A DNA stretch of 64,000 bases, from the IMG/VR virus record IMGVR_UViG_3300028607_002670. The stretch is one strand, 5' to 3'. A program made the translations under genes and the position numbers. This DNA is from a virus. The notes under the pieces were generated by a model. That model made no database searches and was not told the DNA's origin. It saw only the letters and a list, made by a program, of their open reading frames with translations. Below, in pieces: positions 8,822-57,344 of this stretch (positions are counted from its first letter, which is position 1; the number at the start of each line of letters is the position of its first letter).

Positions 8822-10423
8822 TTAGAGCTGTGCCTTCCACTTACCATTTTTAATAGTGATAATACACCGTTTACCATTACTGTAGGTTATAATGTGACTA
8901 TTACTCCATGAAGATCCTCCTTTATTGTACCCCATATCGAGACAACCACTTACCCCCGCAGTGTAAACCCCGTCTTTTATCCCTGCTGAATGAGTATGAC
9001 CTGTGTTGAACCTTCCGCCTTGCATTTGGAAAGCTCTTACACCGCCTCTGGCACCATTATTTCCAACGTGCCCATGTTGACCACACTCTATATCTCCACA
9101 TATTTTGAAGCTTTCATCCTCCGACAAGAATATCACGTCATCTAAGTTATCATTGACTAAATTACAGGCAGTTTTGAATGTGTGCAATTTTCTACCCTCA
9201 TCCATAGCATAATAATTTTGAAGCTGCAGTTCTAAGAAGAAGATAGCATTAACAGGGTCATTTTTATAATCCTGTTCCCTGAGGTATTTTTCTAAAGCTA
9301 AGTCATGGTTCGACTCAACTACAACCACCTTTTCACAAACTTTATTCATTTCTTCTATAAGGTTGGCAGTTAAGGTTACTTCATCTTTAACACTCTCTGT
9401 ACCTTTCTTGTACATCTGAAACTTGAAGTAAGGGTCTTTGATATTGTGGTGATTGCGTGATTGCTGGTCGAAAACATCATGTAAGAACACGTAGTTAGGT
9501 AAAAGTTCACTTGCCATACTATCAGTTCTCTTACCCCAACTAATATCTGCTACAACAGGGTCTAACTTAGCGGTATGAATATCACCCCAATTTATAGATT
9601 CCACACAGTAAGGTTCTTGTTCTTTACCCTCGGGAGTATAGTACCAACCTAAATCGAAGAATTTACCTGTCTCTGATTCTGCTACCAGTTGTCTAACAAA
9701 CCAATCGCCATCACTGTCAATCTCTACAACCAAAGCGCTAAACACATGATTATGAGATGCTTTCTGTCCTGCTTTCATTTTAACGTAGTTACGTTGGGTT
9801 ACCGTGCCTGTTGTATACATCATCTTTGCTGGATCATTCTTAGGTGTTGGCAGACTCTCCAATTGCAACTTGGCGTGAGGTATGATAGCGGAATCTTTAT
9901 TGGTGTAGTTTTGTAACCCTGAAATAGGATTAACTGCAGTAGGTAATATATTCAACTCCCCGCAATAAATCAATTGATCCGCAAGTACACAACTTTCATC
10001 TAAAATATAATCACGTATTTTAGGATCGAACCACACTTCCTCAGATTTACCATTCTGGAAACCGTTCTTATTATAATGATATGTTCCTACAATTAATTCT
10101 GCGTCTTCTTCTTCACAGTAGTGCAATAAGCTTCTCAAGAATTTATCATGTACATAAGTATTATTTTGTGCAGAAGTTATTACAAACTTGTTACCGCTAA
10201 GGATTTTCCTCTTTGTAGTAGGACAAACCACTTCACCACTAGCAACAGGTTTATCCTCATAAGACTCCCAAAAATCAGTATAAGTTTCTTTACGTAAAAA
10301 ATCACCTATCGTAGATTTACCTACACCATACATTTCTGCAATATACCTACTGCTCCGTTTCTCTTGATAAGTTAGTCGTAAAATCTCCACCAACTCATCA
10401 TTTGAAAAAATAGTTTTACTCAA
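8822..10423 (-). CDS. HTH domain fused to calcineurin-like metallophosphoesterase
   Basis: N-terminus RSSRYIAEMYGVGKSTIGDFL (HTH). Phosphoesterase motifs follow in order: WGDIHTAKLD (GDxH), VVESNHDL (GNHD), CGQHGHVG, NTGHTHSAG (GHxH). Confidence 0.6.
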   Translation of the reverse strand: MSKTIFSNDELVEILRLTYQEKRSSRYIAEMYGVGKSTIGDFLRKETYTDFWESYEDKPVASGEVVCPTTKRKILSGNKFVITSAQNNTYVHDKFLRSLLHYCEEEDAELIVGTYHYNKNGFQNGKSEEVWFDPKIRDYILDESCVLADQLIYCGELNILPTAVNPISGLQNYTNKDSAIIPHAKLQLESLPTPKNDPAKMMYTTGTVTQRNYVKMKAGQKASHNHVFSALVVEIDSDGDWFVRQLVAESETGKFFDLGWYYTPEGKEQEPYCVESINWGDIHTAKLDPVVADISWGKRTDSMASELLPNYVFLHDVFDQQSRNHHNIKDPYFKFQMYKKGTESVKDEVTLTANLIEEMNKVCEKVVVVESNHDLALEKYLREQDYKNDPVNAIFFLELQLQNYYAMDEGRKLHTFKTACNLVNDNLDDVIFLSEDESFKICGDIECGQHGHVGNNGARGGVRAFQMQGGRFNTGHTHSAGIKDGVYTAGVSGCLDMGYNKGGSSWSNSHIITYSNGKRCIITIKNGKWKAQL

Positions 10424-10441
10424 ATCTTCTCTCCCCTTCAG

Positions 10442-10630
10442 TTATTCTAACAAAAGTTCCCACTTTGGTGAATGATAAAACTCACTCTCAGAACCATCTT
10501 CATACAAAAACTTAACACTGGTATCTTCCATATCACCATCAAAAATAGTAAACATTACTTTAACTATATCACACCCCATAAAAGTAATACCTGTATCCTC
10601 TATAGGTATCCATTCATCAAGTCTATACAA
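10442..10630 (-). CDS. hypothetical protein (62 aa)
   Basis: ORF track; tightly packed. Confidence 0.5.
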   Translation of the reverse strand: MYRLDEWIPIEDTGITFMGCDIVKVMFTIFDGDMEDTSVKFLYEDGSESEFYHSPKWELLLE

Positions 10631-23833: not shown

Positions 23834-23892
23834 TTATCTTTTCCTTAAAAGGTTGTTTTGTGGTAGGATACGGGATTGTATCCATAAGATAC

Positions 23893-23921
23893 ATTATAAC
23901 AGAATATAATTATTTTTACAA
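23893..23921 (-). promoter_or_regulatory. sigma70-type promoter (TTGTAA-17-TATAAT) for the leftward operon
   Basis: Minus strand: -35 at 23921..23916, -10 at 23898..23893. The palindrome GGATAC-N6-GTATCC (23866..23883) lies just downstream. Confidence 0.55.
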
Positions 23922-23927
23922 TCACAC

Positions 23928-23956
23928 TTGACAACAAGGTAATCTTTGTGTAAATT
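23928..23956 (+). promoter_or_regulatory. sigma70-type promoter (TTGACA-17-TAAATT) for rightward early genes
   Basis: -35 at 23928..23933, -10 at 23951..23956. Confidence 0.55.
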
Positions 23957-23996
23957 GTACAGCACATTATGAAAATGTTTAATTAGGAGGGAGATT

Positions 23997-24870: not shown

Positions 24871-24911
24871 ATACCAAGTTTGTTGACATATACTAAGTTT
24901 CTTGGTATAAT
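24871..24911 (+). promoter_or_regulatory. consensus sigma70 promoter (TTGACA-17-TATAAT) bracketed by 8-bp inverted repeats (candidate operator)
   Basis: -35 at 24883..24888, -10 at 24906..24911. ATACCAAG (24871..24878) pairs with CTTGGTAT (24901..24908). AAGTTT occurs twice. Confidence 0.7.
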
Positions 24912-25278: not shown

Positions 25279-25479
25279 ATGCTTAAACTTATAATACCTC
25301 GTCCCTTATTGGAGTATATCGATAGGTGTAGAGGTTATAGATCTAGACCTAGTTTTATACTAGCATGTGTGAATTACATTATGATTAACAATATAAACCT
25401 AAATAACGAAGGTGAATGTAATGATGAACTTAAAAGAACTCTCAATAGAGGAGAGAACATTAATAACGATAGGGTGTGA
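25279..25479 (+). CDS. ribbon-helix-helix (CopG/Arc-like) protein
   Basis: MLKLIIPRPLLEYIDRCRGYRSRPSFILACVNYIM fits the beta-strand/helix/helix RHH pattern (v.lp..ll..ld......sRS.fI). Confidence 0.45.
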   Translation: MLKLIIPRPLLEYIDRCRGYRSRPSFILACVNYIMINNINLNNEGECNDELKRTLNRGENINNDRV

Positions 25480-26692
25480 CCCATTCTATATAGGATTTAC
25501 CCAAGACAATAAACTTAAACCCGTGCATAATGAATTGAGTAAATATTTCCCCAGTAACCACAAAAAAGAGTTGTGGGTTTTTATAACTGCTGCAGTAAGT
25601 CCTATAAAAAATAATTTATCTGGTAGTATATTCTCTATGAGAAAGGAGGACTACACAAAAGCCAATAAATTAAATAACAGTAAGATTAGTTACGTAAAGT
25701 GTAAGCGTATAATTGATAAACTTGATGAATTAGGTTACATAACTTTTTACAAGGGTTTTTATGACCACAGTGAAAGTTTAAGTTTAAAAAGTTGTTTTAT
25801 TATCAACGATAAATTAAGACTTTTGTTTGATAGAATTAATATAGAGAAAGTAGGTAGACCTTTACCTATAGAAACTTATGTAGAATTAAAAGATTCTAAA
25901 ACAAAGGAAATAATAACAGAACTCAGCAAACTTAAAGGTATTAAAAATAAAAGGGAATTAGTAAAGAAGTATAATGAGATGCTTTTGAAATTTGATATAA
26001 GGTGTAAGTCTCATCGGGTTTCTGCTGTATATAAAAGAGTGTTTACTGATCTACTTGATCTGCATGGTCGTTGGTATAGCCACGGTTCTTTCCAAACAAC
26101 CAGCTCTTTACTAAGACCTTTTATAACGATAAATGGAGTTAAGACTACAGAAGTAGATTTCAGGCAAATGCACCCTAGAATATTAATGGAGTTAGATGGT
26201 ATTAAAAAACCTATGACTTGGGAACCATATACCGATATTTCAGACATCACAGGAGGTTGTAAAAAGGAGTCAAGAACATTAAGCAAGTTTGCTCTTATGT
26301 GTCTACTTAATTGTGAGACTACAAGTAAGGCTAAGTCGGCTTTATTTAAATATTTCTGTGATGATAAAAATAAGGAAAATAAGGTAATACCAAGTTTAAA
26401 GTTACCTAAGGGTTCTGTAAATACAATATTTGAAAGACTCCTTGAGAAGAATAAAGAAATATCTCATTGGTTTGGGAAAGATAAGCTATGGGCTGTGTTG
26501 CAGCACTACGATTCTGAAATTGCATCTTTCATTATTGATAAGTTTATAAAACTTGGTAAATGTATACTTCCTTGGCATGACAGTTTTGTGGTGCAGGTGG
26601 GTGATAGAGATTTACTGATTAATATTATGAGAGAAGCATGGGAAAGTGTTTTAGGTAAACGAGATAATTGTTTTTACGATATTGAATTTTAA
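25421..26692 (+). CDS. miniature right-hand polymerase-like protein (PolA / T7-RNAP-type motifs)
   Basis: Motifs in canonical order (ORF-track numbering from GTG 25412): DLHGRWYS (D216), EVDFRQMHPRIL (D249), SRTLSKFALMCLLNC (R288, K292), LPWHDSFVV..LLINIMRE (D390). I prefer the ATG at 25421, 7 nt after GAAGGTG. Confidence 0.5.
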   Translation: MMNLKELSIEERTLITIGCDPFYIGFTQDNKLKPVHNELSKYFPSNHKKELWVFITAAVSPIKNNLSGSIFSMRKEDYTKANKLNNSKISYVKCKRIIDKLDELGYITFYKGFYDHSESLSLKSCFIINDKLRLLFDRINIEKVGRPLPIETYVELKDSKTKEIITELSKLKGIKNKRELVKKYNEMLLKFDIRCKSHRVSAVYKRVFTDLLDLHGRWYSHGSFQTTSSLLRPFITINGVKTTEVDFRQMHPRILMELDGIKKPMTWEPYTDISDITGGCKKESRTLSKFALMCLLNCETTSKAKSALFKYFCDDKNKENKVIPSLKLPKGSVNTIFERLLEKNKEISHWFGKDKLWAVLQHYDSEIASFIIDKFIKLGKCILPWHDSFVVQVGDRDLLINIMREAWESVLGKRDNCFYDIEF

Positions 26693-26713
26693 TAAGAAGA
26701 GAGGAAAATAAAA

Positions 26714-27661
26714 ATGAAATTAAAGAGTTTAGAAGGTGAAACTGTAATTTTTAGAGCTAAAATAGAAAGGATCTATCTAATTAAAAGCACATCTAGCAAA
26801 AATTACCCAAATAGATGGGCTGCCACATTGACAAATTTACGTTGTAAAGGTCAGCCAGTAAAACTAAACTGCCGTAATATGGAATTAGATGTAACTAAGC
26901 ATTATCACAATCTACTTAAAGGAGATGTAATAAAGTTCAAGAGTAAGGTATCTTTAAATGTTGATAATAGATTTAAAAATGTAAACAAGATTGAAATAGT
27001 AAAGTCCCCTCTTGTAGATAAAATAGGTAACGATTACTTTGAAACTTTATCGGAGGTTTGTGATAAGGTATCTACAAGGAAGAATGGAGATAAGTTAAAT
27101 ACAAAAATAAATAAAGAAGATGTTTTTCCTCTTATAGTTAAGAGTAATAGAGAGAATGGTACAGTATATACATTCACGTACTTACTTGAGAATATAAAAA
27201 TAGTAGGCTGGGGTTATAAGACATTATACAAGGAAATGTTATTTAAAAGTAAACCCGAGATGTATTTTGTATACCAATTAAAAAGAGGTGAAGATATTGT
27301 TTATGTAGGATCTAGCAAAGGATTAGGTAGTAGGCTAACCTCTCATAAGAAAGATAAAGATTTTGACCAAGTTCTTATCTGTTTGTGTAAGGATGAAGAA
27401 GATATGTTGATTCTTGAAAACGGAAAAATACAAGAACTTCAACCAGAATATAACAAAAGTATAAACCTTAAGTTAGCTCGTATCTATAAAGAAAGCCCAG
27501 ATCACATTTTTGAGAGCTTAGAAGACCACACTCTTGATTTTATCCCTTCTATACCTCTTCACAAAGAATTTGGATTTAATAATGAAGGTTATTGGTATGA
27601 AGTTCCGTTAGGTTTGTTCATAAGAAAAGAATTATGCCCTCTATCTTGGAAACCTACATAA
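26714..27661 (+). CDS. GIY-YIG nuclease domain protein with unrelated N-terminal (OB-like?) region
   Basis: MYFVYQLKRGEDIVYVGSSKGLGSRLTSH...LENGKIQELQPEYN gives GIY / YIG / catalytic R / E..N in order. Confidence 0.6.
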   Translation: MKLKSLEGETVIFRAKIERIYLIKSTSSKNYPNRWAATLTNLRCKGQPVKLNCRNMELDVTKHYHNLLKGDVIKFKSKVSLNVDNRFKNVNKIEIVKSPLVDKIGNDYFETLSEVCDKVSTRKNGDKLNTKINKEDVFPLIVKSNRENGTVYTFTYLLENIKIVGWGYKTLYKEMLFKSKPEMYFVYQLKRGEDIVYVGSSKGLGSRLTSHKKDKDFDQVLICLCKDEEDMLILENGKIQELQPEYNKSINLKLARIYKESPDHIFESLEDHTLDFIPSIPLHKEFGFNNEGYWYEVPLGLFIRKELCPLSWKPT

Positions 27662-29054: not shown

Positions 29055-29161
29055 AAATTTGAATTCCCTTGTGGAAATACACAGTACGTAGATAAACTTA
29101 AAGGTGCAGTGGTTATTGTGTGCCAAGGGGATTACGTTTATGAATATTGGAGGGAGGAAGG

Positions 29162-29686
29162 ATGACGTTCCACGAACATATAAAACTTAGGGGTGGTGGA
29201 TTCTGCAAACAAAGGGTAAACTGTTTTGTAGATAGTGAAAATCAAATAATCACCTTTCCTTTGTGGACAACCAACGGTAAACTAGTAGGTTATCAGAGGT
29301 ATGATTGGAGAGCTGATAAATTAAGGAGTAACTCTACCAAAGGTAAATATTACACTTACCGTGATAAGAATATACTTTCCTGTTGGGGTGTTGATTGTAA
29401 CGATTTAACTTCAACAGAAGATTTATTTGTTGTGGAAGGGGTTTGGGATGCGATAAGTGTTATTAATACAGGTAGACGATGTGTAGCAGTGTTATCTAAT
29501 AACCCACAAAACCTCAAAGTTTGGTTCAGAACACTACCTTGTAAAACTATTGCATTGTGCGATGGAGATAAAGCAGGTAAAATGTTATCTAAAGTTTGTG
29601 ATAAATCTATAATTCTACCAGAAGGTGTAGATTGTAATGATATGACGTTGACAGTATTAGATAATTATTTAAAGGAGAATTTATGA
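29162..29686 (+). CDS. DnaG-type primase catalytic core (Toprim) lacking a zinc-finger domain
   Basis: IITFPLWTTNGKLVGYQRY......KGKYYTY (primase RNAP-domain pattern), then Toprim LFVVEGVWDAISV ... IALCDGDKAGKM (E ... DxD). Start at MTFHEH after GGAGGGAGGAAGG. Confidence 0.6.
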   Translation: MTFHEHIKLRGGGFCKQRVNCFVDSENQIITFPLWTTNGKLVGYQRYDWRADKLRSNSTKGKYYTYRDKNILSCWGVDCNDLTSTEDLFVVEGVWDAISVINTGRRCVAVLSNNPQNLKVWFRTLPCKTIALCDGDKAGKMLSKVCDKSIILPEGVDCNDMTLTVLDNYLKENL

Positions 29687-30196: not shown

Positions 30197-30913
30197 ATGA
30201 TAGAAGTATTTGATTTTGAGGCAACAGGATTAGGTGATCCGAAAGCAACTCAAATTGGTAAATGTCGATTGGATAAGAAATACCAACTTATCAAAAGTAC
30301 ATGTAAAAGTAGTTACATCAATCCAGAAAAGGATATCACATGGGGTGCAATGGGAATCACAGGTATCACAAATGAAATGGTGGCAAATAAACCTACTATT
30401 GATAAAGTGTTACCTAAGTTTAAAATCCACCCTTCAACAAAATATGTAGTTTGCCACAATATGTCATTTGATGAAAAGTTCTTTCCAGAAGGGTTTATTC
30501 CTGATGATGTGAAATTGTTATGCACTTTGAAACTAGCGAGGAAACTTATACCCAAAGGTGAATCTGGTGATCATAAAAACACCACTTTATTTTATTATCT
30601 GAGTTGCCACAAAGACCCTTTTGGCAAGGAGTTTATTGAGAAGGCGCACGATTCTTTGTCAGATGTTTTGATGACAGCTAACGTATTGGTTGCCATGTTG
30701 GAAAAGTATAATCTCACTATTGACGAAGCGTATACACTTATTGCACCAAAGGTTAATAATATTGAAGTGTGTGATTTCAACAAGTATAAAGACCAAGGTA
30801 AGAAGTGGGTTGATTTGGTGCAGGAGGATCTTTCTTATGTACAATGGTTACTTGCCAATGTGAAATGGAATGATGAAAAGGAGCAAGCATTTGTTGAAAG
30901 CTTGATTAATTAA
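30197..30913 (+). CDS. DnaQ/epsilon-like 3'-5' exonuclease (DEDDh)
   Basis: Exo I FDFEATGL, Exo II VVCHNMSFDEKF, Exo III AHDSLSDVLMTANV. Confidence 0.8.
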   Translation: MIEVFDFEATGLGDPKATQIGKCRLDKKYQLIKSTCKSSYINPEKDITWGAMGITGITNEMVANKPTIDKVLPKFKIHPSTKYVVCHNMSFDEKFFPEGFIPDDVKLLCTLKLARKLIPKGESGDHKNTTLFYYLSCHKDPFGKEFIEKAHDSLSDVLMTANVLVAMLEKYNLTIDEAYTLIAPKVNNIEVCDFNKYKDQGKKWVDLVQEDLSYVQWLLANVKWNDEKEQAFVESLIN

Positions 30914-31252: not shown

Positions 31253-31327
31253 GCGAGATTAGTTTAATTGGTAAAATAGTAGCCTTCCAAGCTTCAGTCA
31301 TGGGATCGTAACCCATATCTCGCTCCA
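31253..31327 (+). tRNA. tRNA-Gly (anticodon UCC)
   Basis: GCGAGAT/ATCTCGC acceptor, GTTT-AATTGGTA-AAAT D arm, GTAGC-CTTCCAA-GCTTC anticodon arm (one T-T mismatch), ATGGG-ATCGTAA-CCCAT T arm (atypical loop), T + encoded CCA. Confidence 0.7.
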
Positions 31328-33372: not shown

Positions 33373-34182
33373 ATGATCTGGAATAATATCACCTTTCCTG
33401 TCAAAGAAGAGTGGAAAGATATCGAAGGTTACGAAGGTATTTATAAAGTTAGTAATTATGGCAGGGTGAAGAGTCTGTCCAGAGATATTCACTACCACAG
33501 GAACGGAAAAATGACTTCTATCTTTAAGAAAGGAAGGTTACTTAAACCCAAGACAGACAAGGATGGTTATAAAGAGTTATGTATGACTTCCTCTGAAGGT
33601 ATTAGGAAATACAAGAGAGTGCACCGTATCGTGGCAGAAGCTTTCTTAGAAGAAACTCACATAGATAACGCTGTGATAGACCACATAGATAATACCAAAG
33701 ACAATAATATTTGGTACAATCTGCAATGGATGACTTCTACTCAGAATACTATAAAGTATTACGCAGAAGATTACAGTAAAAGTAGAACTTTAAGTTCCTT
33801 AACAAAAGAGGAGTTTGCTAGGATAGGTGAACTTTACAATAAAGGTTTACTTTACCCTGAGATTATAGATGAAATGGGTTTGACGGTAGAAAGTCCCTCC
33901 ACTTTATGGGAAGTTCTATGTGGGAGAAGGTTGTCTAGCGTATCTGGTTTTAAAGAGGGAGATTTTAAAACAAGACCTCACCCTACTACGAAATTAACTG
34001 AAGATGATGTAGTACAAATAATTAAAGAAAGAATTATAGATAAACAAAAGTTAAAAGTGTTGTCAGAGAAATGGGGTGTAGCTGAGTCCATGATAAGTAG
34101 ATTTACTAAAGGTACTCGACAACCTTCCGCTTATATTAAATTCAAAGAAAGGTATAATTATGACAAAGAAAAAGAAGAGTGA
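33373..34182 (+). mobile_element. free-standing HNH homing endonuclease (NUMOD4 + HNH_3 + C-terminal HTH)
   Basis: WKDIEGYEGIYKVSNYGRVKSL (NUMOD4-like); HRIVAEAFL...VIDHIDNTKDNNIWYNLQWMTSTQN (HNH_3-like). Its 3' end overlaps terminase exon 1 by 23 nt. Confidence 0.75.
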
Positions 34183-36219
34183 ACCACTCTTCAAACCCGC
34201 CAGTGAGAAGCAAGCTCTTATTCTTAAAAGGGCTTCTGACACACAGGTGACTATTATTGGTGGAGCTTAAAAATCCAGTGGTTCCACATTAAATAACCCT
34301 GCTAATTCGATGAAGGCTAAGTGTACTACATAAGCTAATATCGAGCCGAATGATTAAATTCATGGGTGTAGAGATCAATCGTGATGAGTGTAACGATGTA
34401 GGGGCCAAGTGGCTTCCAAACGTAGGGCTATGTTATAACATAGAAGATATGATCCGACAACACAGGAAACTGTGGAAAGAGAGTAACGCCTCTAAAACTG
34501 ATCCTGAAAAATGGCTGGTTCAGGAAAAAGTTATCTATTGCAAATGATCCCTTTAATGTTAATAGATGATCCCAATTCGGAAATGGTAATGTTCCGTAGA
34601 ACTAATCCCCAGATAAAAGGTGCGGGTGGTATATTTAGCACAGGTTGCGGAATATACAATCAGCTCCCTCCTAATATAAGACCAAAGATTAAAACAGGTG
34701 ACCTAGAAGTTATATTCCCTACCAAAGACGAGAAAGGTAGGCGTAGTTATAATGGTGCCAAGATAAAATATCAACAAGCAGAAAATGTAGAACAAAGTAA
34801 ACTAAATGCCCAAGGTTTGCAATGGACTTTTGTTGGTATAGATGAGGGTTAATTGTAGCCCCTTAATGTAGGAATACATTTAGAAAATCCCGTGAATTCA
34901 GGGGAAGCCTCTAGTAGGTAATCCTGAGCGAAGCTCGAAAGAGAACGTGCAACGACTATCCTGAAAAGGAGTACACAACAAGCTAATGGTTGTGGAAGCG
35001 CGGGACACCTAGAACAGGTGATGATATAGTCTGAACTTCTATGGTGACATAGAGCAGCCATAATAGGCGGAAGATGACTTGCAAACATCTTTGAACACAA
35101 TTGACACAATTCGAATGGAGTCAGATAGAATATTTCATGTCTCGACTCAGGTCACAATCAAAACATTTCTCCCGTATGGTTATATCTTGTAACCCGTCAC
35201 CCTCTCATGAGATTAAGAAGATGATCTCATTCTACTTGACAGATGACGGATATCCTGACCCTAAAAAGGACGGTTTAGTTAGGTATTTCATACAAAGAGA
35301 CGGTGAGTACATATGGGGAGAAACAAGGGAAGAATTAGGAACAAGGTTTGATATTCCTGAAAAAGATTGGGAAAACTTAATTCTATCTTTCAGCTTCGTG
35401 AGCGCAAATATTTATGATAATCCTCCGATGATTGAGAGCAACCCAGCTTACCTCGGCTTCTTAGAAGGTTTGAATGAAATTGACAAAGCTCAACTATTAC
35501 ATGGTTGCTGGGCAGAATTTGCATTCGGAAGTAAATACTTTAAACGTGATTGGATAGATCACGTAGATAAAGTACCTACAGATGGTCTCACTGTTAGGGC
35601 ATACGATTTCGGAGCATCTGAAAGAACCATGTCAAACAAGAACCCCGATCCAACAGTAAGTATAAAAATGCATAAAAGTAAAGATGGCTATTATACTTTA
35701 ATGGGTGATTACCACGAAGACTTCTATGACAAAGTGGATGATATTCAAGGGGCAATGTATCTCAGTTCTGGGGAAAGGGATAGAGTAATGTTAAAACAGG
35801 CTGCATTTGACGGTTCAGAAGTTTACCTTGTTGGTCCGCAAGATCCTGCTGCGGCTGGAAAAGCCCTTTGGAATCAACAAGCTAAGTACTTTGCAGAAGA
35901 AGGTTATATTTATAAAAAAGACCCCATGCCTATAACAAAGAATAAACTTACCAAGTTCTTACCTTTTGCAACAAGTGCAGAGAATGGTTTGATACGTATA
36001 GTTAAGTCCACTTTTTCAGAGAACACTTATAATCATATAATGAAACAGTTGGAAAACTTTGATGGTGAAAGATCAACCAAAACCAAAAAGGATGACTTTG
36101 CAGATGCTATAGCTTCGGCTTACAACTTCCTATCCAAAGAAAGAGTAATCCGCGCCTACAGCCTCCCAGACACCACTTCTCCAACAGCTTACACCTCTTA
36201 CCGCAAGTCTATCCGATGA
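34160..36219 (+). CDS. terL: terminase large subunit, three exons: join(34160..34267, 34514..34849, 35104..36219), 519 aa
   Basis: Exon 1 (my translation): MTKKKKSEPLFKPASEKQALILKRASDTQVTIIGGA. Joined to exon 2 it restores Walker A IIGGA|AGSGKSYLLQ. Exon 2/3 junction: Walker B FVGIDEG|TQFEWSQIEYFMSRLRS. Exon lengths sum to 1560 nt, in frame. Each 5' exon ends in T and each intron ends in G. Confidence 0.8.
34268..34513 (+). mobile_element. group I intron 1 in terL (246 nt, ORF-less)
   Basis: Exon-end GGAGCU can pair with intron GGUUCC (34280..34285), giving P1 with a U-G wobble at the splice site. The intron ends in G and starts with an in-frame TAA. GATATGATCC + CACAG-GAAA-CTGTG near the 3' end looks like P7/P8. 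Confidence 0.65.
34850..35103 (+). mobile_element. group I intron 2 in terL (254 nt, ORF-less, td-like IA2 core)
   Basis: Exon GGGU pairs with intron GCCC (34858..34861). TAATTG.., GGGGAAGCCTCTAGTAGGTAATCC, CAACGACTATCC, GATATAGTCTG and CTATGGTGACATAGAGC closely resemble the T4 td intron core as I recall it. Ends in G. Confidence 0.75.
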
Positions 36220-44911: not shown

Positions 44912-46129
44912 TTACTTCCACCACTCGTTTATATAATCTTTACAAAAGGAACAAACCTCTTCATAATGTTTGTTCTTAACTAACTCACTACTTCCGTAAG
45001 TATTTTCTGGTCGGTCAGAATCATAAATACCGTCACCAAAACCTATGAGCAACTGTTCTAAGTTAAATATGGTTATGTGATCTGCTTGTAAGGTGAGGGT
45101 TTGTGTAAAAGTGAATTTATCTTTTCCGTAGAAATTATCTAACCTACCCTGATTTTCTTTCAACCTCCTATTTAGGTCAAAAGTTCTCCCAACTTTAAAA
45201 TAAGGTAGGCCAGATATAAGTAGGTACAGATTATCAGGGTAATGTTCTTTCCCTTTAAAGTATCCAAAGTTACTTACAGCACAAGACCTGCATCTTTGAC
45301 CTGAGATATATCTACTTGCAGATGTGAGGCAAGGGTGATTGTTATTACAAACCCAATGAAATTTACTATTAACATCTTCATATGGTTTATCCCATTTTAA
45401 GAAAGTTGATTTTTCAGATGACAATATTTTATTTATTTTGAAATTTATGATATTATAAGGGTATCTATAACTATTGCTGCATCTGCAAGGTAAGGAACCT
45501 TTCCGTAAGCCAGAGGCAGTTGATGAGAATACCCCAGAACACAAACCCTCTTCTACGTATTCATCATAAGAGCAAGAAGGGCAAGTGTAGGTCCACCTAG
45601 CAGTATTCTCACTGTCTCTATAAAATTTAGTACCTTCTTTAAATTTACCTGATTCCCAGAAAGATTTTATATTATCTTTATCACTCTTAAACATACGTTT
45701 CGACGAAGCCAAACGCCGTACCTCAGGATCTCTTTTACCATTGTTTATAAAATTGTTTATATTGCAGCTACTCCAAGTATTATCTGTAACGGGATTGTGT
45801 AATATAAGTTTAGTATCCACCCCTAACCATTCACCATCAAACCCTAAAAATGTATATCCTAGGTCAAGACATTTACGTTGTATCTTAACAACCCACTGGT
45901 ACTCTTTCCATTTAGTAGACTTGGAACAACCGCAAGGAACTCTACCCTTTAAAAGGTGGCTCTTAGATATTAAAAAATCCTCGCTGAAAAGTTCTTTATC
46001 CTGACTACAGATAGAACATTCAACTTTATACTTGACTTTCCAGTTATTAACTTCTTTCCCCGTTACCGTCAAAACACCACCCCCGTAAGTAGTGAAAGTT
46101 TCTCCGATAAAATTATCAACTTTTTTCAT
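44912..46129 (-). mobile_element. GIY-YIG-like (T5orf172-type) endonuclease with repeated Zn-ribbon modules, opposite strand
   Basis: NLYLLISGLPYFKVGRTFDLNRRLKENQ...LEQLL fits the T5orf172/GIY-YIG-like core. N-terminal repeats CSICSQ..VPCGCS, CPSCSY..LPCRCS, C..NNH..CRSCA. Confidence 0.45.
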
Positions 46130-51390: not shown

Positions 51391-54300
51391 ATGTCTAATA
51401 TAATTGAAGAATTTGTAATAAAGTTTCTCACTGATTCTAAGGAAGCTAAGAAGGGTGCTCAAGAGATTGATAAACTTCTTGACAGTGTAGGTAAAAAACA
51501 AGTTAAACGTGCTACAACCAATGCAAAGGTTGAAAATAAAGCACACAAAACAATGTTAGCAAAGAAACTAAAGGACGAAGCTACTTACGGAAGGGATAGT
51601 CGTATTCAAGCTGATAAGGCTCGTAAGGCATGGGAACGTAGGGAAAAGATTAAATCCATCATGCCAAATAACCAACTTGCTAATAAAAGTGCTCAAAGTA
51701 GTGCTAGTGTTTTCGAAAAAAGTTTCAAAGAAGAAGCTGTACAATCAGCAAAACTTTCTGAAATGGAAAGGAAGCGGTGGGTTGATAAGCAAAAACGTAG
51801 AGCTGCTAATAGAAGGCAAAGGGAAGATGATCGGAGGCAAGAAGAGGATTCTTATAGAAAGTCTCTTAATAATCGCCTAAAAGCTTTCAAGGCTTCTAAA
51901 CAAAAAGAACGAAAACTTACAGAAGATATAGACAAGCAAGCTGCAATGATCCGTAGAACGGCGGGGTTCAAACTTGCGGGACGTATGGGCGAAAGTGGTA
52001 AATATGACAGCGAGATACAACGTTTAGTAGATAAGAAAGACCTTGCGGGACTGAGAAACCTTCGCTACGAGATGTCTGATGTTCGTGAAAATATGACTCG
52101 TTATCGTAAGAGTTTAAGGAAAACTAACATTGCTCAAAAAGGACTTACCGATTCTACAAGGAATATGATCCGTAGTTATGCAAGTTTATATGCTATTTTT
52201 GAAGGAACCACTGCAATTAAGCGGGTAGGGCAAGACTTTCAGGGGATGGAGGCATCTATGTTGGCTGCAAGTGGTAGTACTGAAGCTGCTGCAAAGGATA
52301 TGATGTTTATAAATGGAATTGTTGATGAAATGGGTCTTAGTTTAAAAGATACTACAGACGCTTTTGTTAAGTTTAAATTTGCATCAAAAGGAAAAATTTC
52401 CCAAACGGAACAAGAGGACTTATTCACAGGATTGAGTATGTTCGGGACAGCATTGAAGGTAGATGATGAAAGCATGAAGCGAAGTCAGAAAGCCTTGATC
52501 CAGATGATGTCCAAGGGAAAAATTATGGCAGAAGAATTAAAAAACCAGTTAAAACAAAGACTTAGCTGCCTAGTATAGAAATGTACTAGTGAAAAACTCC
52601 TTTAATTGTCTGGGAAGCCGTAAAACTTTACTTTTATAAAATATAATGTTAATATAGTATTTTATAGAGTAGAGATATATTGGTAATCAGCAGCGAAGAC
52701 CACTTATATCTCCTGAAACAGGAGAGTGAAATGATAAAAGATATACCTAATTTTTCAGGGTATTTTGCAGATGTAGATGGTAATATCTACTCTAGCAAAA
52801 AGGGTAATATAATTAAGAAATTAACACCGCAGTATCAAAAACAGTGGGGTTATTATTCTTTGAGGCTTATAGCAGATTGCGGTAATAAGAAGCACATGAC
52901 AGTTCACAGACTAATGGCTCTAACTTACCTGCCAAACCCTGATAACCTACCAGAAGTAAACCATAAGAACGGAGTGAAAACCGATAACAGGTTATCAAAC
53001 CTAGAATGGATGTCTAAGAGTGATAATATTAAACACGCTTACCAGATAGGTATGAACTGTGTAAAAGGTGTTCTCAACGGAAGGTCAACTTTAGAAGAAC
53101 AAGAAGTTTTAGAGATTTATAACAAACTTTACCAAGGTGTTAGTACAAATAGCTTAATGCAAGAGTACAATACAAGTAGGAGCATTATCAGTAATATAAA
53201 AAGAAGAGAAGCTTGGTCACATTTAACCAAAGACCTTCCTGATATTACTATAAAAGTTAAATCTAAGACTCTTCCTGAAAATATTGTCAGGTTTATATGT
53301 GAGAACCTAGAAAGGGGTTTATCTCCTACAAAAATACTAACCTTGTGTTTGGAAACTTTTGGAGAAGGTTCAGTACGAATCGATAATATCTATGATATAA
53401 AGAGACGTAGAGGTTTTAAAAATATCTTATCAGATTATAAATGGTAACGTTCAACGATCATTGAAAGCTAACTGTAAAACAGTGCGAGTAAAGTACAGCC
53501 TAAGTTTATGAGGTAGATGTGGTGAGTAATAATCATGTAATCCATCTTTAAATGGAAATGGGGAGAACCTAAACAAGTTAAGTTGTAGGTTAAGATATGA
53601 TCTAGTCTTGCATGAAAGTGCAAGCTGATACAAGGATGTTACGGGAGAGGTGTTACGAGCCTCTTCGAATACAACGTAGGTGATAGTTTGCCAGGGGCAG
53701 TGCAAATATTTACAAGGGCTTTAGGAGTCACTGAAGCTGAACTATTCAAAATGATGGAACAAGGTCAACTCCTTTCAGCAGAAGTATTACCAAAAGTAGC
53801 AGCCGAGTTTAAAAAATCAGCAAAAGAAGGTGGGGCATACACACTAGCCTTACAAGGACTACGTGTTAAAGAAGGTCAATTTATGACTGGAATGCAACGT
53901 GCAGGGAAAACCATATTCAACTCAGGTTTTGAAAAAGGGTTAGCAAACCTTTATGGCACACTGTCAACCATGTTCGAAAACTCAGAACCCCAACTTAAAA
54001 AATTAGGTAAAATATTTGGTGATGTATTCAATGGAATATCCATTGCCATAAAAGTATTAGAACCTATTATGAAAATTGCCATAGATAACTTTTACACACT
54101 TGTAGGGGCAAAGGCAATCTTTATGGTAAGGGGTTTTGTTGGTGCATTAAATGCACAAAGTTACATTGCAGCAAGAGCATGGGCTAGAATGTTTGCCCCT
54201 GTAGCAGCAGCGTTAGTTTTAGTAGATGAATTAGCTTCTCTAATGGACGATTCCCGTTTAGGTTTACTTGAGAAGAGTATTGGTAAACAGGTGAACGTTA

Positions 54301-54608
54301 AAACAGGAAGTATTAGCGAATTTACTGAGAAGAATGGTAAGTTTTATGCGAAAGAGGGAAGCAGTAGCAAAGTGTCAGGACTTTCAATGGGGTTCAGTGC
54401 AGTGTCTAATGCTGTCCAGAATATGAATCCATTCCACTCAGTTTATAATGCTGCTACGTCAGCTTCGGATTTATTCCAATCAGGTATGACTTCTGGAAGT
54501 GCAGTGTATAACCATTATCAAAATACATTCAACAATACTCAAGCTGATGATGTTAAACGTGCAGTGGGTGCAGGTGTATCTGCAGCACAACAACCAAGAG
54601 GAAAATAA
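51391..54608 (+). CDS. tape measure protein, two exons: join(51391..52549, 53677..54608), 696 aa
   Basis: The junction restores the conserved TMP core ..[50 protein letters not shown]. The exons sum to 2091 nt, in frame. Confidence 0.8.
52550..53676 (+). mobile_element. group I intron in the tape measure gene (1127 nt) carrying an HNH endonuclease ORF
   Basis: The 5' exon ends in U (CAGU pairs with intron GCUG 52565..52568) and the intron ends in G. CAACGATCATT ... AAGATATGATCTAGTCTTGCATGAAAGTGCAAGC resembles td-type P7/P8. Confidence 0.7.
52731..53447 (+). CDS. intron-encoded HNH homing endonuclease (NUMOD4/HNH_3 type)
   Basis: IPNFSGYFADVDGNIYS; VHRLMALTYL...EVNHKNGVKTDNRLSNLEWMSKSDN. Paralogous to 33373..34182. 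Start at ATG 52731 after CAGGAGAG. Confidence 0.75.
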   Translation: MIKDIPNFSGYFADVDGNIYSSKKGNIIKKLTPQYQKQWGYYSLRLIADCGNKKHMTVHRLMALTYLPNPDNLPEVNHKNGVKTDNRLSNLEWMSKSDNIKHAYQIGMNCVKGVLNGRSTLEEQEVLEIYNKLYQGVSTNSLMQEYNTSRSIISNIKRREAWSHLTKDLPDITIKVKSKTLPENIVRFICENLERGLSPTKILTLCLETFGEGSVRIDNIYDIKRRRGFKNILSDYKW

Positions 54609-56580: not shown

Positions 56581-56618
56581 CTACCTCTTGATAAATAATG
56601 ATAATAAGGTTATAATAT

Positions 56619-57344
56619 ATGAATACGGATATAGATAGTTTTAATGAAGCTATCGTATCTCACATTGACAACTATGAAGCTCAAATGTACTCAGCTCTCC
56701 CTGCAACAGTGGTGAGTTATGATGCTACAACACAAAGAGTCCTATGTCAACCAGTGATGTACGAAGCTTACACATCAGGGGAGTCGCAAGAACATTCTTA
56801 TATTCAATGTCCTCTTATCCAAACAGGGAGCGGAGGGGGTGTGTTAACCTTTCCAGTGAATGTAGGTGATGAAGTTCTTTTGGTTATGTCATCTAGAAAC
56901 TTTGACACATGGTGGAGCACTTCACAAGCCCCCTCACTAAGTTCTACGGTACGTTTTAATGACTATTCAGATGCAATAGCTATCCTAGGTTTAAAAAGTA
57001 AAAACAATAGCGTCAACGCCTCCACAGAGAACGTAGAGTTACAATTCCGTGACCAACAAGGTGTCCCTTTATCAAGTATTATACAACGTCCTGATAAAAG
57101 CGTGGATATTACTTCTGAAAGTGGAAGTAGTGTGAAATTACTACCTGATGGTAACATAGAGATCACTACTGCTGCAACTATTAAAATTCAGAATAGCGGT
57201 GAAGAGTTGGTCAATTTGTTCAGTGAGTGTCTAGAAGAAATATCTAAAATAACCACTAACACTATCTACGGGTCAAACACCCCAATAAACAACCTTCCCG
57301 CTTTTGTAGCGTTGAAATCAAGACTAGACACTTTAAAAGGATAA
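56619..57344 (+). CDS. baseplate central spike (Gp138_N / Mu gp45-like)
   Basis: LPATVVSYDATTQRVLCQPVM...QCPLIQTGSGGGVLTFPVNVGDEVLLVMSSRNFDTWW fits the Gp138 N-terminal OB pattern. Confidence 0.55.
   Translation: MNTDIDSFNEAIVSHIDNYEAQMYSALPATVVSYDATTQRVLCQPVMYEAYTSGESQEHSYIQCPLIQTGSGGGVLTFPVNVGDEVLLVMSSRNFDTWWSTSQAPSLSSTVRFNDYSDAIAILGLKSKNNSVNASTENVELQFRDQQGVPLSSIIQRPDKSVDITSESGSSVKLLPDGNIEITTAATIKIQNSGEELVNLFSECLEEISKITTNTIYGSNTPINNLPAFVALKSRLDTLKG

What the first reader, a model, noticed from the sequence alone, without database searches (positions are those of the whole stretch)
25421..26692. A 423-aa ORF carrying the full ordered motif set of PolA / T7-type single-subunit polymerases at less than half their size
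Four motifs occur in the canonical order (ORF-track numbering). (1) LDLHGRWYSHGSF (D216, nt 26057) matches the ssRNAP DxxGRxY motif, which I recall as DWRGRVYAVSMF in T7 RNAP. It also resembles GR(I/L)H.S..Q of Pol I. (2) TTEVDFRQMHPRILM (D249, nt 26156) matches PolA motif A, DYSQIELR. (3) SRTLSKFALMCLLNC (R288/K292, nt 26273) matches motif B, RxxxKxxxMxLxYG (T7 RSVTKRSVMTLAYGS), but N-C replaces the sugar-discriminating Y-G. (4) ILPWHDSFVVQVGDRDLLINIMREAW (D390, nt 26579) matches T7 RNAP motif C plus its following helix, IHDSFGT....LFKAVRETM. The inter-motif spacing is only 33/39/102 aa. There is no exonuclease domain and no recognisable promoter-specificity or N-terminal RNAP domain. I know of no described family of such small PolA-superfamily enzymes. 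It could be a minimal primer-making or transcribing polymerase, or a replication initiator built on a polymerase palm.
Basis: partly seen in the sequence, partly recalled or inferred. Interest (0 to 1): 0.85.

Follow-up and report, generated by a model that had tools for sequence, protein, structure and literature searches.

The report
Thumb-less accessory family-A polymerase (divPolA2)
The ORF is a real, probably active, miniature relative of DNA polymerase I and T7 RNA polymerase that many marine phages carry alongside their normal replicase; the family was named "divPolA2" in 2024 but nobody knows what it does, and here it looks most like an early-made enzyme that starts DNA replication.

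Summary
ORF 25421-26692 (423 aa) carries the family-A motifs, and they are invariant or nearly so across more than 100 relatives that share 22-67% identity with it. An AlphaFold model (pLDDT 91) matches only family-A DNA polymerases in the PDB.

The claim that no such family is described is wrong. The ORF belongs to divPolA2 (Yutin et al. 2024, Virol J 21:200). It is homologous to that paper's representative AUR84708 (BLASTP E 8e-12) and to the barbavirus proteins. By profile-profile comparison it also relates to the probable TV-Pol of phage Ma-LMM01 (P 6.7e-5). TV-Pols are minimal family-A polymerases predicted in 2008 to prime replication. One member, CCPol-MP, is a proven primase.

New here:
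- The N-terminal domain looks like a winged helix.
- The Pol I steric-gate Glu is His in 105 of 113 relatives.
- The ICP1 orthologue gp100 is an early gene a few kb from ICP1's mapped theta origin.
- Distant members sit in oriV-Rep_3 operons or next to an integrase.
- The closest annotated relative, J2-1, has a canonical primase-helicase, a PolA and a second paralogue.

Best reading (about 0.4): an early, sequence-targeted polymerase that makes the initiating primer at the origin. Rivals are a minimal RNA polymerase and a repair DNA polymerase. It is a new member of a known but uncharacterised kind.

The parts
25421..26692 (+). divPolA2-type accessory family-A polymerase gene (423 aa plus stop)
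   Evidence: ORF. PHROG 4756 of unknown function, E 9e-149. Homologues in 244 phage records. AF2 pLDDT 91.4. Foldseek PDB top hits are all family-A DNA polymerases. BLASTP to divPolA2 representative AUR84708, E 8e-12.
25553..25804 (+). Winged-helix-like module (residues ~45-128) inside the N-terminal domain (residues 1-~195)
   Evidence: Helix-helix-helix-beta-hairpin pattern in both models. The N-terminal model's top 50 PDB matches are almost all winged-helix proteins (MarR, Fur, PadR, TFE/TFIIE, Orc1/Cdc6, TubR), but none is significant (best E 0.017). Weak Pfam wHTH hits in several relatives: HTH_46, HTH_34, Cdc6_C, FtsK_gamma. Tentative.
26066..26077 (+). G216-R217-W-Y219 beta-hairpin motif (equivalent to PolA GR / T7 RNAP xxGR, and to the TV-Pol 'absolutely conserved arginine')
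   Evidence: G and R invariant in 113 of 113, Y in 102 of 113. Predicted strand 217-220.
26150..26173 (+). Motif A: E244-V-D246-F-R-Q-M-H251 (catalytic Asp; His at the Pol I steric-gate position)
   Evidence: D246 in 113 of 113, E244 in 108 of 113. H251 in 105 of 113 (Gln 7, Tyr 1; never Glu or Gly). Strand 240-247.
26273..26311 (+). Motif B / O-helix: R285-xxx-K289-xxx-M293-xxx-N297
   Evidence: R in 111 of 113, K in 113 of 113. K+4 is Leu or Met in 102 of 113. K+8 is Asn 79, Phe 19, Tyr 15. Helix 281-297.
26501..26515 (+). Fingers motif L-Q361-xx-D364-S365
   Evidence: Q in 106 of 113, D in 109 of 113. Corresponds to the conserved fingers aspartate named for TV-Pol.
26576..26584 (+). Motif C: H386-D387-S388 (second catalytic Asp)
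   Evidence: H and D in 113 of 113, S in 105 of 113. Beta-hairpin 383-392.
25279..25479 (+). 66-aa upstream ORF overlapping the polymerase start; ribbon-helix-helix-like by sequence pattern; probable co-transcribed partner or regulator
   Evidence: Co-conserved with the polymerase gene in L003-L007 at 40-92% identity. Only a weak Pfam DUF7677 hit. The RHH assignment is my inference from the sequence.
24883..24911 (+). Consensus sigma-70 promoter (TTGACA-17-TATAAT, 12 of 12, with extended -10 TG) heading the operon 24932-ORF / 25279-ORF / polymerase
   Evidence: Consistent with the 'Early' class of the ICP1 orthologue gp100.
23834..23996 (.). Divergent intergenic region (leftward late/lysis-type genes, rightward early genes) 1.4 kb upstream; the GC-skew sign change lies here
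   Evidence: Divergent promoter-like sites at 23928-23956 (+) and 23921-23893 (-). In 9 of about 12 related loci the gene lies 0.5-4 kb from such a strand switch.

Best explanation
The ORF encodes an active, thumb-less, exonuclease-less family-A nucleotide polymerase of the divPolA2 / TV-Pol-like group. A palm plus fingers (residues ~200-423) with the full catalytic set is fused to an N-terminal domain of ~195 residues that contains a winged-helix-like DNA-binding module.

It is an accessory enzyme. The phage lineage has its own gp4-type primase-helicase and a full-size PolA.

Proposed mechanism, mostly inferred:
1. Host RNA polymerase makes the enzyme early, from a consensus sigma-70 promoter.
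2. Its N-terminal domain directs it to a specific DNA site in or near the theta origin.
3. There it synthesises the first primer de novo. This is the job T7 RNA polymerase does for the T7-type replisome, and that CCPol-MP or TV-Pols are shown or predicted to do for mobile elements.
4. It then hands over to the canonical replisome.

Sugar specificity is open. The Pol I steric-gate Glu is replaced by an almost invariant His, and Tyr766 mostly by Asn. The enzyme therefore does not use the Pol I mechanism for excluding rNTPs, and the primer could be RNA.

Shown: homology, fold, residue conservation, family membership, early promoter, genomic contexts. Inferred: DNA-site targeting, de novo initiation, role at the origin.
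For: Fold and active site:
- AF2 pLDDT 91.4. Foldseek PDB hits are exclusively family-A polymerases.
- G216, R217, R232, D246, K289, H386 and D387 are invariant in 113-124 diverse relatives.

Family:
- BLASTP to AUR84708, E 8e-12. Barbavirus hits.
- hhalign of the family profile against the Ma-LMM01 gp030 group (a probable TV-Pol, next to IS605-type transposases) gives P 6.7e-5. 167 columns align with all motifs in register, and the D-x4-H and K-x7-N signatures are shared.
- T7 RNAP and T7 DNAP profiles give only P 0.19 and 0.65.
- TV-Pols were predicted to be primase-polymerases. CCPol-MP is a demonstrated PolA-type primase.

Replication link:
- In L016 and L017 a family member with all catalytic residues lies directly downstream of a Rep_3 initiator gene. 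That gene is preceded by iterons, and in L017 also by DnaA-box-like repeats.
- The bacterial member P0178 lies next to a phage-type integrase.
- ICP1's theta origin maps 'near 60 kb', and the orthologue gp100 lies at 56,043-57,710 in the same strain background.
- gp100 is classed 'Early' and is highly transcribed at 4 min, before replication starts at about 8 min.

Window context:
- Perfect sigma-70 promoter.
- The gene is 1.4 kb from the divergent switch and GC-skew sign change.
- A Toprim primase-like ORF and a DnaQ-like exonuclease lie 2.5-3.5 kb downstream.

Accessory status: relative J2-1 encodes primase/helicase gp67 and DNA pol I gp68 elsewhere. ICP1-type phages are not predicted to encode an RNA polymerase that could prime a T7-type replisome.
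Against: - There is no biochemical or genetic evidence for any member of divPolA2.
- No iterons, tandem repeats or an obvious AT-rich unwinding element were found next to the gene in the window or in ICP1.
- The ICP1 origin is mapped only with 1-kb bins and described as 'near 60 kb'. That is 2-4 kb from gp100, not at it.
- These phages already have DnaG-like or gp4-like primases.
- Yutin et al. found the gene's neighbourhood variable and not replication-rich. My neighbourhood survey agrees.
- J2-1 has two paralogues, and other phages two or three. An origin-primer model does not need this.
- The Rep_3-linked and integrase-linked members are distant branches. The Rep_3-linked ones are shorter at the N-terminus.
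- The winged-helix assignment rests on non-significant Foldseek hits (best E 0.017).
- The identity of Ma-LMM01 gp030 as the TV-Pol of Iyer et al. is my inference from its size and transposase neighbours.
Confidence: 0.4

Rival explanations
1. It is a minimal single-subunit DNA-dependent RNA polymerase. Made early by the host enzyme, it transcribes phage middle and/or late genes. The winged-helix-like N-terminal domain acts as promoter reader, and paralogues serve different promoter classes.
For: - ICP1-type phages have no predicted RNA polymerase and no known means of temporal control.
- gp100 is early, while replication genes are 'Middle-early'.
- PF00940 is the only polymerase family with weak Pfam hits among relatives (2 of 113, best E 0.0046).
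- Motif C is HDSF as in T7 RNAP (H811-D812-S-F). Leu or Met occupies K+4, as does T7 M635. The steric-gate Glu is absent.
- The best hhalign segment against T7 RNAP aligns motif C in register, though not significantly.
- Two or three paralogues per genome.
Against: - No long repeated promoter-like motif exists in the 64-kb window. No 12-mer occurs more than 3 times, whereas T7-type phages repeat a ~23-bp promoter many times.
- PDB structural top hits are DNA polymerases, not RNA polymerases.
- The profile relationship to the TV-Pol-like group is far stronger than to T7 RNAP.
- Members occur in oriV-Rep_3 operons and integrase-bearing bacterial elements, where a dedicated transcriptase is not expected.
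- The position of Tyr639, the key rNTP-selecting residue of T7 RNAP, is usually Asn.
- No specificity loop or intercalating hairpin can fit in 423 aa (inference from size).
Confidence: 0.2
2. It is a primer-dependent accessory DNA polymerase used for repair, gap filling, lesion bypass or recombination-dependent synthesis. It would be analogous to Pol I, Pol theta or Pol nu functions, with no role in initiation.
For: - The closest solved structures are Pol I-type DNA polymerases, including Pol theta.
- Lack of proofreading and of a thumb suggests low processivity.
- Yutin et al. list repair as one option.
- The J2-1 paralogue gp58 lies in a block with endonuclease V, polynucleotide kinase and a phosphatase.
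- The divPolA2 representative AUR84708 has Pol I-like Glu at D+5, Tyr at K+8 and FDE at motif C.
- CCPol without its partner only extends primers.
Against: - The gene is expressed very early, before any phage DNA synthesis.
- A repair polymerase does not obviously need a conserved, dedicated N-terminal DNA-binding-like domain.
- This subgroup lacks the dNTP-selecting Glu and mostly lacks Tyr.
- Members are linked to oriV-Rep_3 and to integrases.
- Invariance of the GR hairpin, Q225 and R232 is uninformative here, because those features are shared by all family-A enzymes.
Confidence: 0.2
3. It is a non-catalytic origin-binding replication initiator or regulator that merely retains a polymerase-like fold.
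For: - N-terminal winged-helix-like module.
- Position near the ICP1 origin.
- Upstream RHH-like ORF, as in plasmid copy-control modules (inference).
Against: - Both metal-binding aspartates, the O-helix Arg and Lys, and the primer-terminus Arg are invariant over more than 100 relatives at 22-67% identity to the ORF. That pattern is expected only under selection for catalysis.
- The Rep_3-linked members already have a separate initiator.
Confidence: 0.04

Closest known systems
divPolA2 (Yutin, Tolstoy, Mutz, Wolf, Krupovic & Koonin 2024, Virol J 21:200; PMC11348598)
   Same: - Same family by direct homology: BLASTP E 8e-12 to AUR84708, family HMM E 6.5e-51, and barbavirus proteins hit by tblastn and Foldseek.
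- About 420-440 aa, an active-looking palm, no 3'-5' exonuclease, no canonical thumb, and an N-terminal globular domain.
- Encoded in addition to a regular DNA polymerase.
- Paralogues within one genome (J2-1 gp58).
   Different: - This ORF's subgroup has His / mostly Asn / HDS where AUR84708 has Pol I-like Glu / Tyr / FDE.
- The published description left the N-terminal domain unassigned. Here it looks winged-helix-like.
- It did not note the ICP1 orthologue's early expression and proximity to the origin, or the Rep_3-linked and integrase-linked members.
TV-Pol family (Iyer, Abhiman & Aravind 2008, Biol Direct 3:39)
   Same: - Minimal family-A core: beta-hairpin with an invariant Arg, two catalytic Asp, and fingers with RxxxK and a conserved Asp.
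- An optional N-terminal, largely helical extra domain.
- No nuclease fusion, and occurrence in viruses and mobile elements.
- Profile-profile P 6.7e-5 to the Ma-LMM01 gp030 group, with shared D-x4-H and K-x7-N-G signatures.
- A bacterial member lies next to an integrase.
   Different: - In this phage there is no linkage to a D5-like helicase, resolvase or transposase.
- The two-helix thumb could not be verified.
- That gp030 is the TV-Pol of the 2008 paper is inferred, not confirmed.
- No direct comparison with Sputnik V13 or the original alignment was possible.
CCPol-MP primase of SCCmec (Bebel et al. 2020 eLife; Rice 2023 Front Mol Biosci)
   Same: A small A-family polymerase on a mobile element with a shortened thumb and no active exonuclease. 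It is the only such enzyme shown to synthesise primers de novo, so it is the functional precedent for the proposed mechanism.
   Different: - CCPol needs a separate OB-fold partner (MP) and a helicase in the same operon. It keeps Pol I's Glu710 and Phe762 equivalents and uses dNTPs.
- This ORF has a fused N-terminal domain and His plus Leu/Met at those positions.
- Its neighbours are an RHH-like ORF and a homing endonuclease, not an SSB or helicase.
T7-type single-subunit RNA polymerases (Pfam PF00940)
   Same: - Family-A palm and fingers.
- xxGR, RxxxK-xxx-M and HDSF motifs resemble T7 residues 421-425, 627-635 and 811-814.
- An extra N-terminal DNA-recognition domain in concept.
- T7 RNAP also primes replication at the T7 origin (established knowledge).
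   Different: - Less than half the size.
- No significant sequence-profile match.
- The N-terminal domain is unrelated.
- Tyr639 is usually Asn, and Gly542 is His.
- No repeated promoter in the genome window.
Bacterial/phage DNA polymerase I (Klenow, KlenTaq, apicoplast POL; Pfam PF00476)
   Same: Best structural matches. Motif A D-[FY]-x-x-x-x-x-[R] and the motif B and C geometry are shared.
   Different: - No Pfam hit.
- No exonuclease domain and no canonical thumb.
- The steric-gate Glu is replaced by His.
- TM-score normalised to the query is only 0.27-0.38, because the N-terminal half is unrelated.

Membership tests
divPolA2 | Sequence homology to the barbavirus proteins and to the published representative AUR84708 (MG592441.1) | tested here: met
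   BLASTP E 8e-12 over 222 aa with all motifs aligned. The family HMM hits AUR84708 at E 6.5e-51. tblastn to 115 Rheinheimera barbavirus records at E 3e-12. Foldseek to Barba31A A0A4P8NBL2 at E 8e-22.
divPolA2 | Palm with conserved catalytic residues; no 3'-5' exonuclease domain; no canonical thumb; N-terminal globular domain | tested here: met
   Catalytic residues are invariant. The model shows an N-terminal domain (residues 1-~195) plus palm and fingers, with no exonuclease-like segment.
divPolA2 | Encoded in addition to a regular replicative DNA polymerase; sometimes 2-3 paralogues per genome | tested here: met
   Not visible inside the window. In the ~93% identical relative J2-1: DNA pol I gp68 and primase/helicase gp67, and a second paralogue gp58 (HMM E 4e-129).
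TV-Pol | [quoted passage not shown] | tested here: met
   R217, D246 and D387 in 113 of 113. R285 in 111 of 113, K289 in 113 of 113, D364 in 109 of 113. Strands 204-209 and 217-220.
TV-Pol | Profile-level sequence relationship to accepted TV-Pol members | tested here: inconclusive
   hhalign of A3 against the Ma-LMM01 gp030 group gives P 6.7e-5, probability 64%, over 167 columns from the GR motif to motif C. gp030 is only presumed to be the Ma-LMM01 TV-Pol (506 aa, adjacent to IS605-type transposases). Sputnik V13, CCPol and the original alignment could not be obtained.
TV-Pol | Thumb of two antiparallel helices | not testable with these tools
DSSP shows helices 130-136 and 174-188 before the palm.
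TV-Pol | Gene-neighbourhood or fusion link to a D5-like helicase, or to a resolvase, integrase or transposase | tested here: not met
   None within 5 kb in the window or in most phage loci. It is met only for the distant bacterial member P0178, which has a Phage_integrase gene immediately upstream.
T7-type ssRNAP (PF00940) | Significant match to the RNA_pol profile | tested here: not met
   No Pfam hit at E<=10 for the ORF. Two of 113 relatives hit weakly, best E 0.0046. hhalign against a T7-group profile gives P 0.19.
T7-type ssRNAP (PF00940) | rNTP-selecting Tyr639 in motif B, Gly at motif A D+5, and the T/DxxGR motif | tested here: not met
   K+8 is Asn 79, Phe 19, Tyr 15. D+5 is His in 105 of 113. 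GR is invariant, but the preceding Asp is not conserved.
T7-type ssRNAP (PF00940) | DNA-dependent RNA synthesis from specific promoters | not testable with these tools
   This needs biochemistry. The indirect test, a search for a repeated promoter motif in the 64-kb window, was negative.
Family-A DNA polymerase (PF00476) | Significant match to the DNA_pol_A profile | tested here: not met
   No hit for the ORF or any of 113 relatives at E<=10. PDB sequence and profile searches were empty.
Family-A DNA polymerase (PF00476) | Right-hand palm/fingers fold of Pol I | tested here: met
   Foldseek top 50 are all Pol I-type enzymes, probability 0.99-1.00, E down to 1.5e-5.
Family-A DNA polymerase (PF00476) | Steric-gate Glu (Klenow E710 / T7 DNAP E480) five residues after the motif A Asp | tested here: not met
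   His in 105 of 113, Gln in 7, Tyr in 1, never Glu. T7 DNAP D475..E480 was checked on the real sequence.
CCPol-MP type PolA-SSB primase | Adjacent small OB-fold ssDNA-binding partner and a helicase in the same operon | tested here: not met
   The upstream neighbour is a 66-aa RHH-like ORF, and the downstream neighbour is a GIY-YIG-like homing endonuclease. No helicase lies within 5 kb. The fold of the small ORF was not predicted.

The most novel reading that the evidence does not exclude
This roughly 420-aa protein and its ICP1 orthologue gp100 are the missing phage-encoded RNA polymerase of ICP1-like phages. That would make it the smallest known sequence-specific DNA-dependent RNA polymerase. 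It would read promoters with a winged-helix domain instead of the T7-type N-terminal domain and specificity loop. It would both switch on middle genes and make the RNA primer at the theta origin.
Probability: 0.12. Interest if true: 0.9.

Novelty: new member of a known kind. Interest (0 to 1): 0.45.

Why it matters
If the proposed role is right, a very large and untested protein family (thousands of sequence clusters in marine and enteric phages, plus some bacterial mobile elements) would be a third kind of primase. These would be built on the Pol I / T7 RNAP palm rather than on the DnaG or archaeo-eukaryotic folds.

It would also explain how ICP1-type phages start theta replication. They have a T7-like replisome but no T7-like RNA polymerase.

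Because the Vibrio cholerae phage ICP1 carries an orthologue (gp100) and is genetically tractable, the question is directly testable.

The natural His/Asn versus Glu/Tyr variation at the sugar-selecting positions could also show how family-A enzymes switch between dNTP and rNTP use. Even if the function turns out to be repair, a 220-residue catalytic core defines the minimal working family-A polymerase.

Tried and rejected
1. Direct Pfam, NCBIfam and PDB-sequence searches with the ORF or with family profiles gave nothing useful. The only hit was a spurious HAD-hydrolase match at E 3.5e-4, far below its cut-off.
2. hhalign of the family profile against T7 RNAP and T7 DNAP, as single sequences and as profiles built from 75 and 74 IMG/VR relatives, was not significant. 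Those template profiles were too narrow (Neff about 1.9), so this does not argue against the structural relationship.
3. A search for iterons, tandem repeats or AT-rich elements around the gene in the window and around ICP1 gp100 found nothing convincing.
4. A search for a repeated phage promoter by k-mer counting in the 64-kb window found none.
5. The search for related loci with the diverse alignment failed because no stretch was conserved enough. The second homologous-protein run, with the 113-sequence profile, returned essentially the same 33 proteins.
6. tblastn against plasmids found only one to three alphaproteobacterial hits with uninformative neighbours.
7. I considered that the adjacent 'DNA polymerase exonuclease subunit' PHROG hit (30197-30913) might make this a split PolA replicase. 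I rejected this because the exonuclease is DnaQ/RNase_T-type, not PolA-type, and the lineage has a full-length PolA.
8. I considered chance motif co-occurrence and rejected it on conservation and fold.
9. The supplementary alignment of the TV-Pol paper is not held.
Full report
THE OBSERVATION

The window is part of a ~120-130 kb myophage genome. It is about 92-93% identical at the nucleotide level to Pseudoalteromonas phages HM1 and J2-1 (Qingdaovirus) and is distantly related to Vibrio phage ICP1.

The ORF is real. The ORF listing gives 25412..26692. The likely start is ATG 25421 or 25424, behind an AGGTG ribosome-binding site.

The protein matches PHROG 4756 (unknown function, E 9e-149). It has homologues in 244 phage records: Vibrio, Rheinheimera, Aeromonas, Shewanella, Pseudoalteromonas, Klebsiella and Pseudomonas phages. 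An HMM of the family finds 8,767 clusters at 50% identity with E<=1e-3.

In alignments of 113-124 relatives sharing 22-67% identity with the ORF, G216, R217, R232, D246, K289, H386 and D387 are invariant. Y219, Q225, E244, H251, Y270, R285, Q361, D364, S365 and S388 are at least 90% conserved.

Two details do not generalise. The Asp of 'DxxGR' is variable. The Tyr766/Tyr639 position is Asn in 70%, Phe in 17% and Tyr in 13% of relatives.

FOLD

AlphaFold2 with a 22-sequence alignment gives a confident model (pLDDT 91.4, pTM 0.88).

Foldseek against the PDB returns 78 hits at E<=1e-3. The 50 listed are all family-A DNA polymerases: apicoplast POL, Aquifex Pol I, KlenTaq, Bst, Klenow, M. smegmatis Pol1 and Pol theta, with probability 0.99-1.00. 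TM-scores normalised to the query are only 0.27-0.38, because the N-terminal ~195 residues have no counterpart there.

Against predicted viral structures, the best non-family hits are again phage PolA enzymes. One family member, from Rheinheimera phage Barba31A, is already labelled 'DNA polymerase' in UniProt.

Sequence methods alone do not see the relationship. There is no Pfam hit at E<=10 and no PDB sequence or profile hit. Only two weak PF00940 hits, and no PF00476 hits, appear among 113 relatives.

ALREADY DESCRIBED

- Iyer, Abhiman and Aravind (2008) defined TV-Pol. This is a minimal family-A polymerase of transposons and viruses with exactly this motif set and an optional N-terminal helical domain. 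They predicted it to be a primase-polymerase.
- Bebel et al. (2020) showed that one member, CCPol, becomes a dNTP-using primase together with a small partner, MP.
- Yutin et al. (2024) described 'divPolA2' in barbaviruses and other phages. It has an active palm, no thumb, no exonuclease and an unassigned N-terminal domain. It occurs alongside a regular DNA polymerase and has up to three paralogues per genome. They proposed a repair DNA polymerase or an RNA polymerase.

I fetched their representative AUR84708. It aligns to this ORF with BLASTP E 8e-12 across all motifs and is hit by the family HMM at E 6.5e-51. The barbavirus proteins are hit directly. The ORF is therefore a divPolA2 member.

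No later paper in the library mentions divPolA2 or ICP1 gp100.

LINK TO TV-Pol

Ma-LMM01, named in the 2008 paper as carrying a TV-Pol element, has a 506-aa hypothetical protein, gp030, next to IS605-type transposases.

- The family HMM picks gp030 as the best ORF in that 50-kb stretch (E 7.7e-4).
- A profile of gp030 and six homologues aligns to the family profile with P 6.7e-5 over 167 columns, running from the GR hairpin through motifs A and B and the LQ..D motif to motif C.
- Both groups share the unusual D-x4-H and K-x7-N signatures.
- By contrast, T7 RNAP and T7 DNAP profiles give P 0.19 and 0.65.

I conclude that divPolA2 is a branch of, or sister to, the TV-Pol assemblage. The caveat is that gp030's identity as 'the' TV-Pol is inferred.

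WHAT IS NEW HERE

(1) N-terminal domain. A separate model of residues 1-195 (pLDDT 83) has no significant PDB match. Its top 50 are almost all winged-helix DNA-binding proteins: MarR, Fur, PadR, TFE/TFIIE, Orc1/Cdc6 and TubR, with E 0.017-0.3. Several relatives give weak Pfam winged-helix hits. A winged-helix-like module at residues ~45-128 is a reasonable but unproven reading.

(2) Sugar-selecting positions.
- The residue five positions after the motif A Asp is Glu in Pol I and T7 DNAP (the steric gate) and Gly in T7 RNAP. Here it is His in 105 of 113 relatives and never Glu or Gly.
- K+4 is Leu or Met, as T7 RNAP has Met635. It is not Phe or Tyr.
- K+8 is mostly Asn.
- AUR84708, in contrast, has the Pol I-like Glu, Tyr and FDE.
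The family thus contains two active-site flavours.

(3) Expression. A perfect sigma-70 promoter (TTGACA-17-TATAAT with an extended -10) lies at 24883-24911. It heads an operon of an 80-aa ORF, a 66-aa ORF and the polymerase. The ICP1 orthologue is ORF100/gp100. It is classed 'Early' and has its highest read counts at 4-8 min.

(4) Position.
- The gene lies 1.4 kb from a divergent intergenic region where the GC skew changes sign.
- In 9 of about 12 related loci it lies 0.5-4 kb from such a switch.
- In ICP1, theta replication starts from a single origin 'near the 60 kb position', mapped in 1-kb bins. gp100 lies at 56,043-57,710 in the same strain background.

(5) Contexts of distant members.
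- In two small HK97-type phage contigs (L016, L017), an N-terminally shorter member with all catalytic residues follows a Rep_3 (WH1-WH2) initiator gene directly. That gene is preceded by iterons and, in L017, by two DnaA-box-like repeats.
- A bacterial member (P0178) follows a phage-type integrase.
- A Thioclava plasmid copy sits among IS and methylase genes.

(6) Accessory status. J2-1 encodes primase/helicase gp67 and an 847-aa DNA pol I gp68 about 70 kb away. It also has a second paralogue, gp58. gp58 is about 33% identical overall, with the N-terminal half at 24-32% and most of the C-terminal half at 38-52%, and it has Tyr at K+8.

(7) Small upstream ORF. A 66-aa ORF overlapping the polymerase start is co-conserved in relatives. 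By its sequence pattern it looks ribbon-helix-helix-like (my inference).

MECHANISM

The evidence shows an active family-A nucleotidyl transferase without proofreading or a canonical thumb. It is fused to a probable DNA-binding domain, made early, and is additional to the replicase.

The best-supported role is sequence-targeted de novo primer synthesis at the theta origin, followed by hand-over to the gp4-type/PolA replisome. Four lines support it:
- the family's kinship with TV-Pol and CCPol;
- the oriV-Rep_3 and integrase contexts;
- the origin-proximal position and pre-replicative timing in ICP1;
- the fact that these phages have a T7-like replisome but no T7-like RNA polymerase to prime it.

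I give this about 0.4. The weaknesses are real:
- there is no biochemistry;
- no iterons or unwinding element lie near the gene;
- the origin map is coarse;
- other primases are present;
- neighbourhoods are variable;
- the paralogues are unexplained.

A repair or gap-filling DNA polymerase (about 0.2) fits the structural neighbours and the Pol I-like AUR84708 subgroup. It does not explain the very early expression or the dedicated N-terminal domain.

A non-catalytic initiator is very unlikely, given the invariant catalytic residues.

VERDICT

The added value is a concrete hypothesis that can be tested in ICP1 (gp100).

Interest is moderate (0.45). It is not a new kind of enzyme. It is, however, a very large uncharacterised family with an intact polymerase active site, an unusual sugar-selecting pocket and a plausible role in starting replication.

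Noticed in passing
window 34840-35054 (+), with 34511-34852 and 35101-36219: A group I intron (Rfam RF00028, 97 bits) lies between a short ORF and the C-terminal two-thirds of the large terminase (PHROG 979, profile positions 274-626). The terminase gene appears to be split by an intron. An HNH endonuclease gene lies just upstream at 33373-34182.
   Followed up: partly
window 51391-54608 (+): The tape-measure gene is in two pieces (51391-52578 and 53688-54608), separated by an HNH_3 endonuclease ORF (52680-53447). ICP1 gp79-gp81 has the same arrangement. No intron RNA reached the Rfam threshold here.
   Followed up: partly
window 26714-27661 (+): A 315-aa ORF with a weak GIY-YIG/UvrC-like match starts 22 nt after the polymerase stop codon. 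It has no counterpart in the two closest relatives' loci (L003, L004), so it is probably a free-standing homing endonuclease that inserted next to the polymerase gene. The J2-1 paralogue gp58 is likewise next to an HNH gene.
   Followed up: partly
window 29147-29686 and 30197-30913 (+): A 179-aa Toprim-only DnaG-like ORF matches the middle of primase PHROG 849 and has no zinc-finger or helicase-binding part. A 238-aa DnaQ/RNase_T-type exonuclease lies 2.5-3.5 kb downstream of the polymerase gene.
   Followed up: partly
window 25279-25479 (+): A 66-aa ORF overlaps the polymerase start by about 60 nt. It is co-conserved with the polymerase in relatives down to 34% polymerase identity. Its sequence pattern (beta-strand KLIIPRPL, then ...YRSRPSFILACVNYI) resembles ribbon-helix-helix repressors.
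   Followed up: partly
window 31253-31324 (+): A single tRNA gene (Rfam RF00005, 57 bits) in the early region.
   Followed up: no
window 44912-46129 (-): A 404-aa protein with four CapR-homology domain repeats (Pfam PF21817; PHROG 'endonuclease') is encoded on the opposite strand inside the late structural block, like the T5orf172-type nucleases of ICP1.
   Followed up: no
L017 4840-5064 and 7979-8232: Upstream of the Rep_3 gene are two copies of CTGTGGATAACC (DnaA-box-like) and two ~37-nt iterons. Downstream of the polymerase homologue are five copies of a 28-nt repeat (GTGAGCCGTCGCGTACGCGCCTGTGAGC) spaced exactly 60 nt apart. This could be a CRISPR-like mini-array or a second iteron set.
   Followed up: no
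L181 (J2-1, NC_047839) 9290-10552 (-) = record 69290-70552: The closest annotated relative carries a second divPolA2 paralogue (gp58, 420 aa, HMM E 4e-129). It is only about 33% identical to the window ORF, its N-terminal half is more diverged than its catalytic half, and it has Tyr instead of Asn at motif B K+8. The window itself has only one copy.
   Followed up: partly
L179 (Vibrio phage 1.063.O, MG592441) 25469-26761 (-): The published divPolA2 representative AUR84708 sits in the same relative genomic position as ICP1 gp100, with an acyl-carrier-like gene upstream and nrdD downstream. It nevertheless has Pol I-like Glu (D+5), Tyr (K+8) and FDE (motif C) instead of His/Asn/HDS. This suggests two substrate-selectivity flavours within one family.
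   Followed up: partly
window 25600-26000: The lowest G+C content of the region (24-26%) lies inside the polymerase gene, in the part encoding the end of the N-terminal domain and the linker. No repeats were found there.
   Followed up: partly
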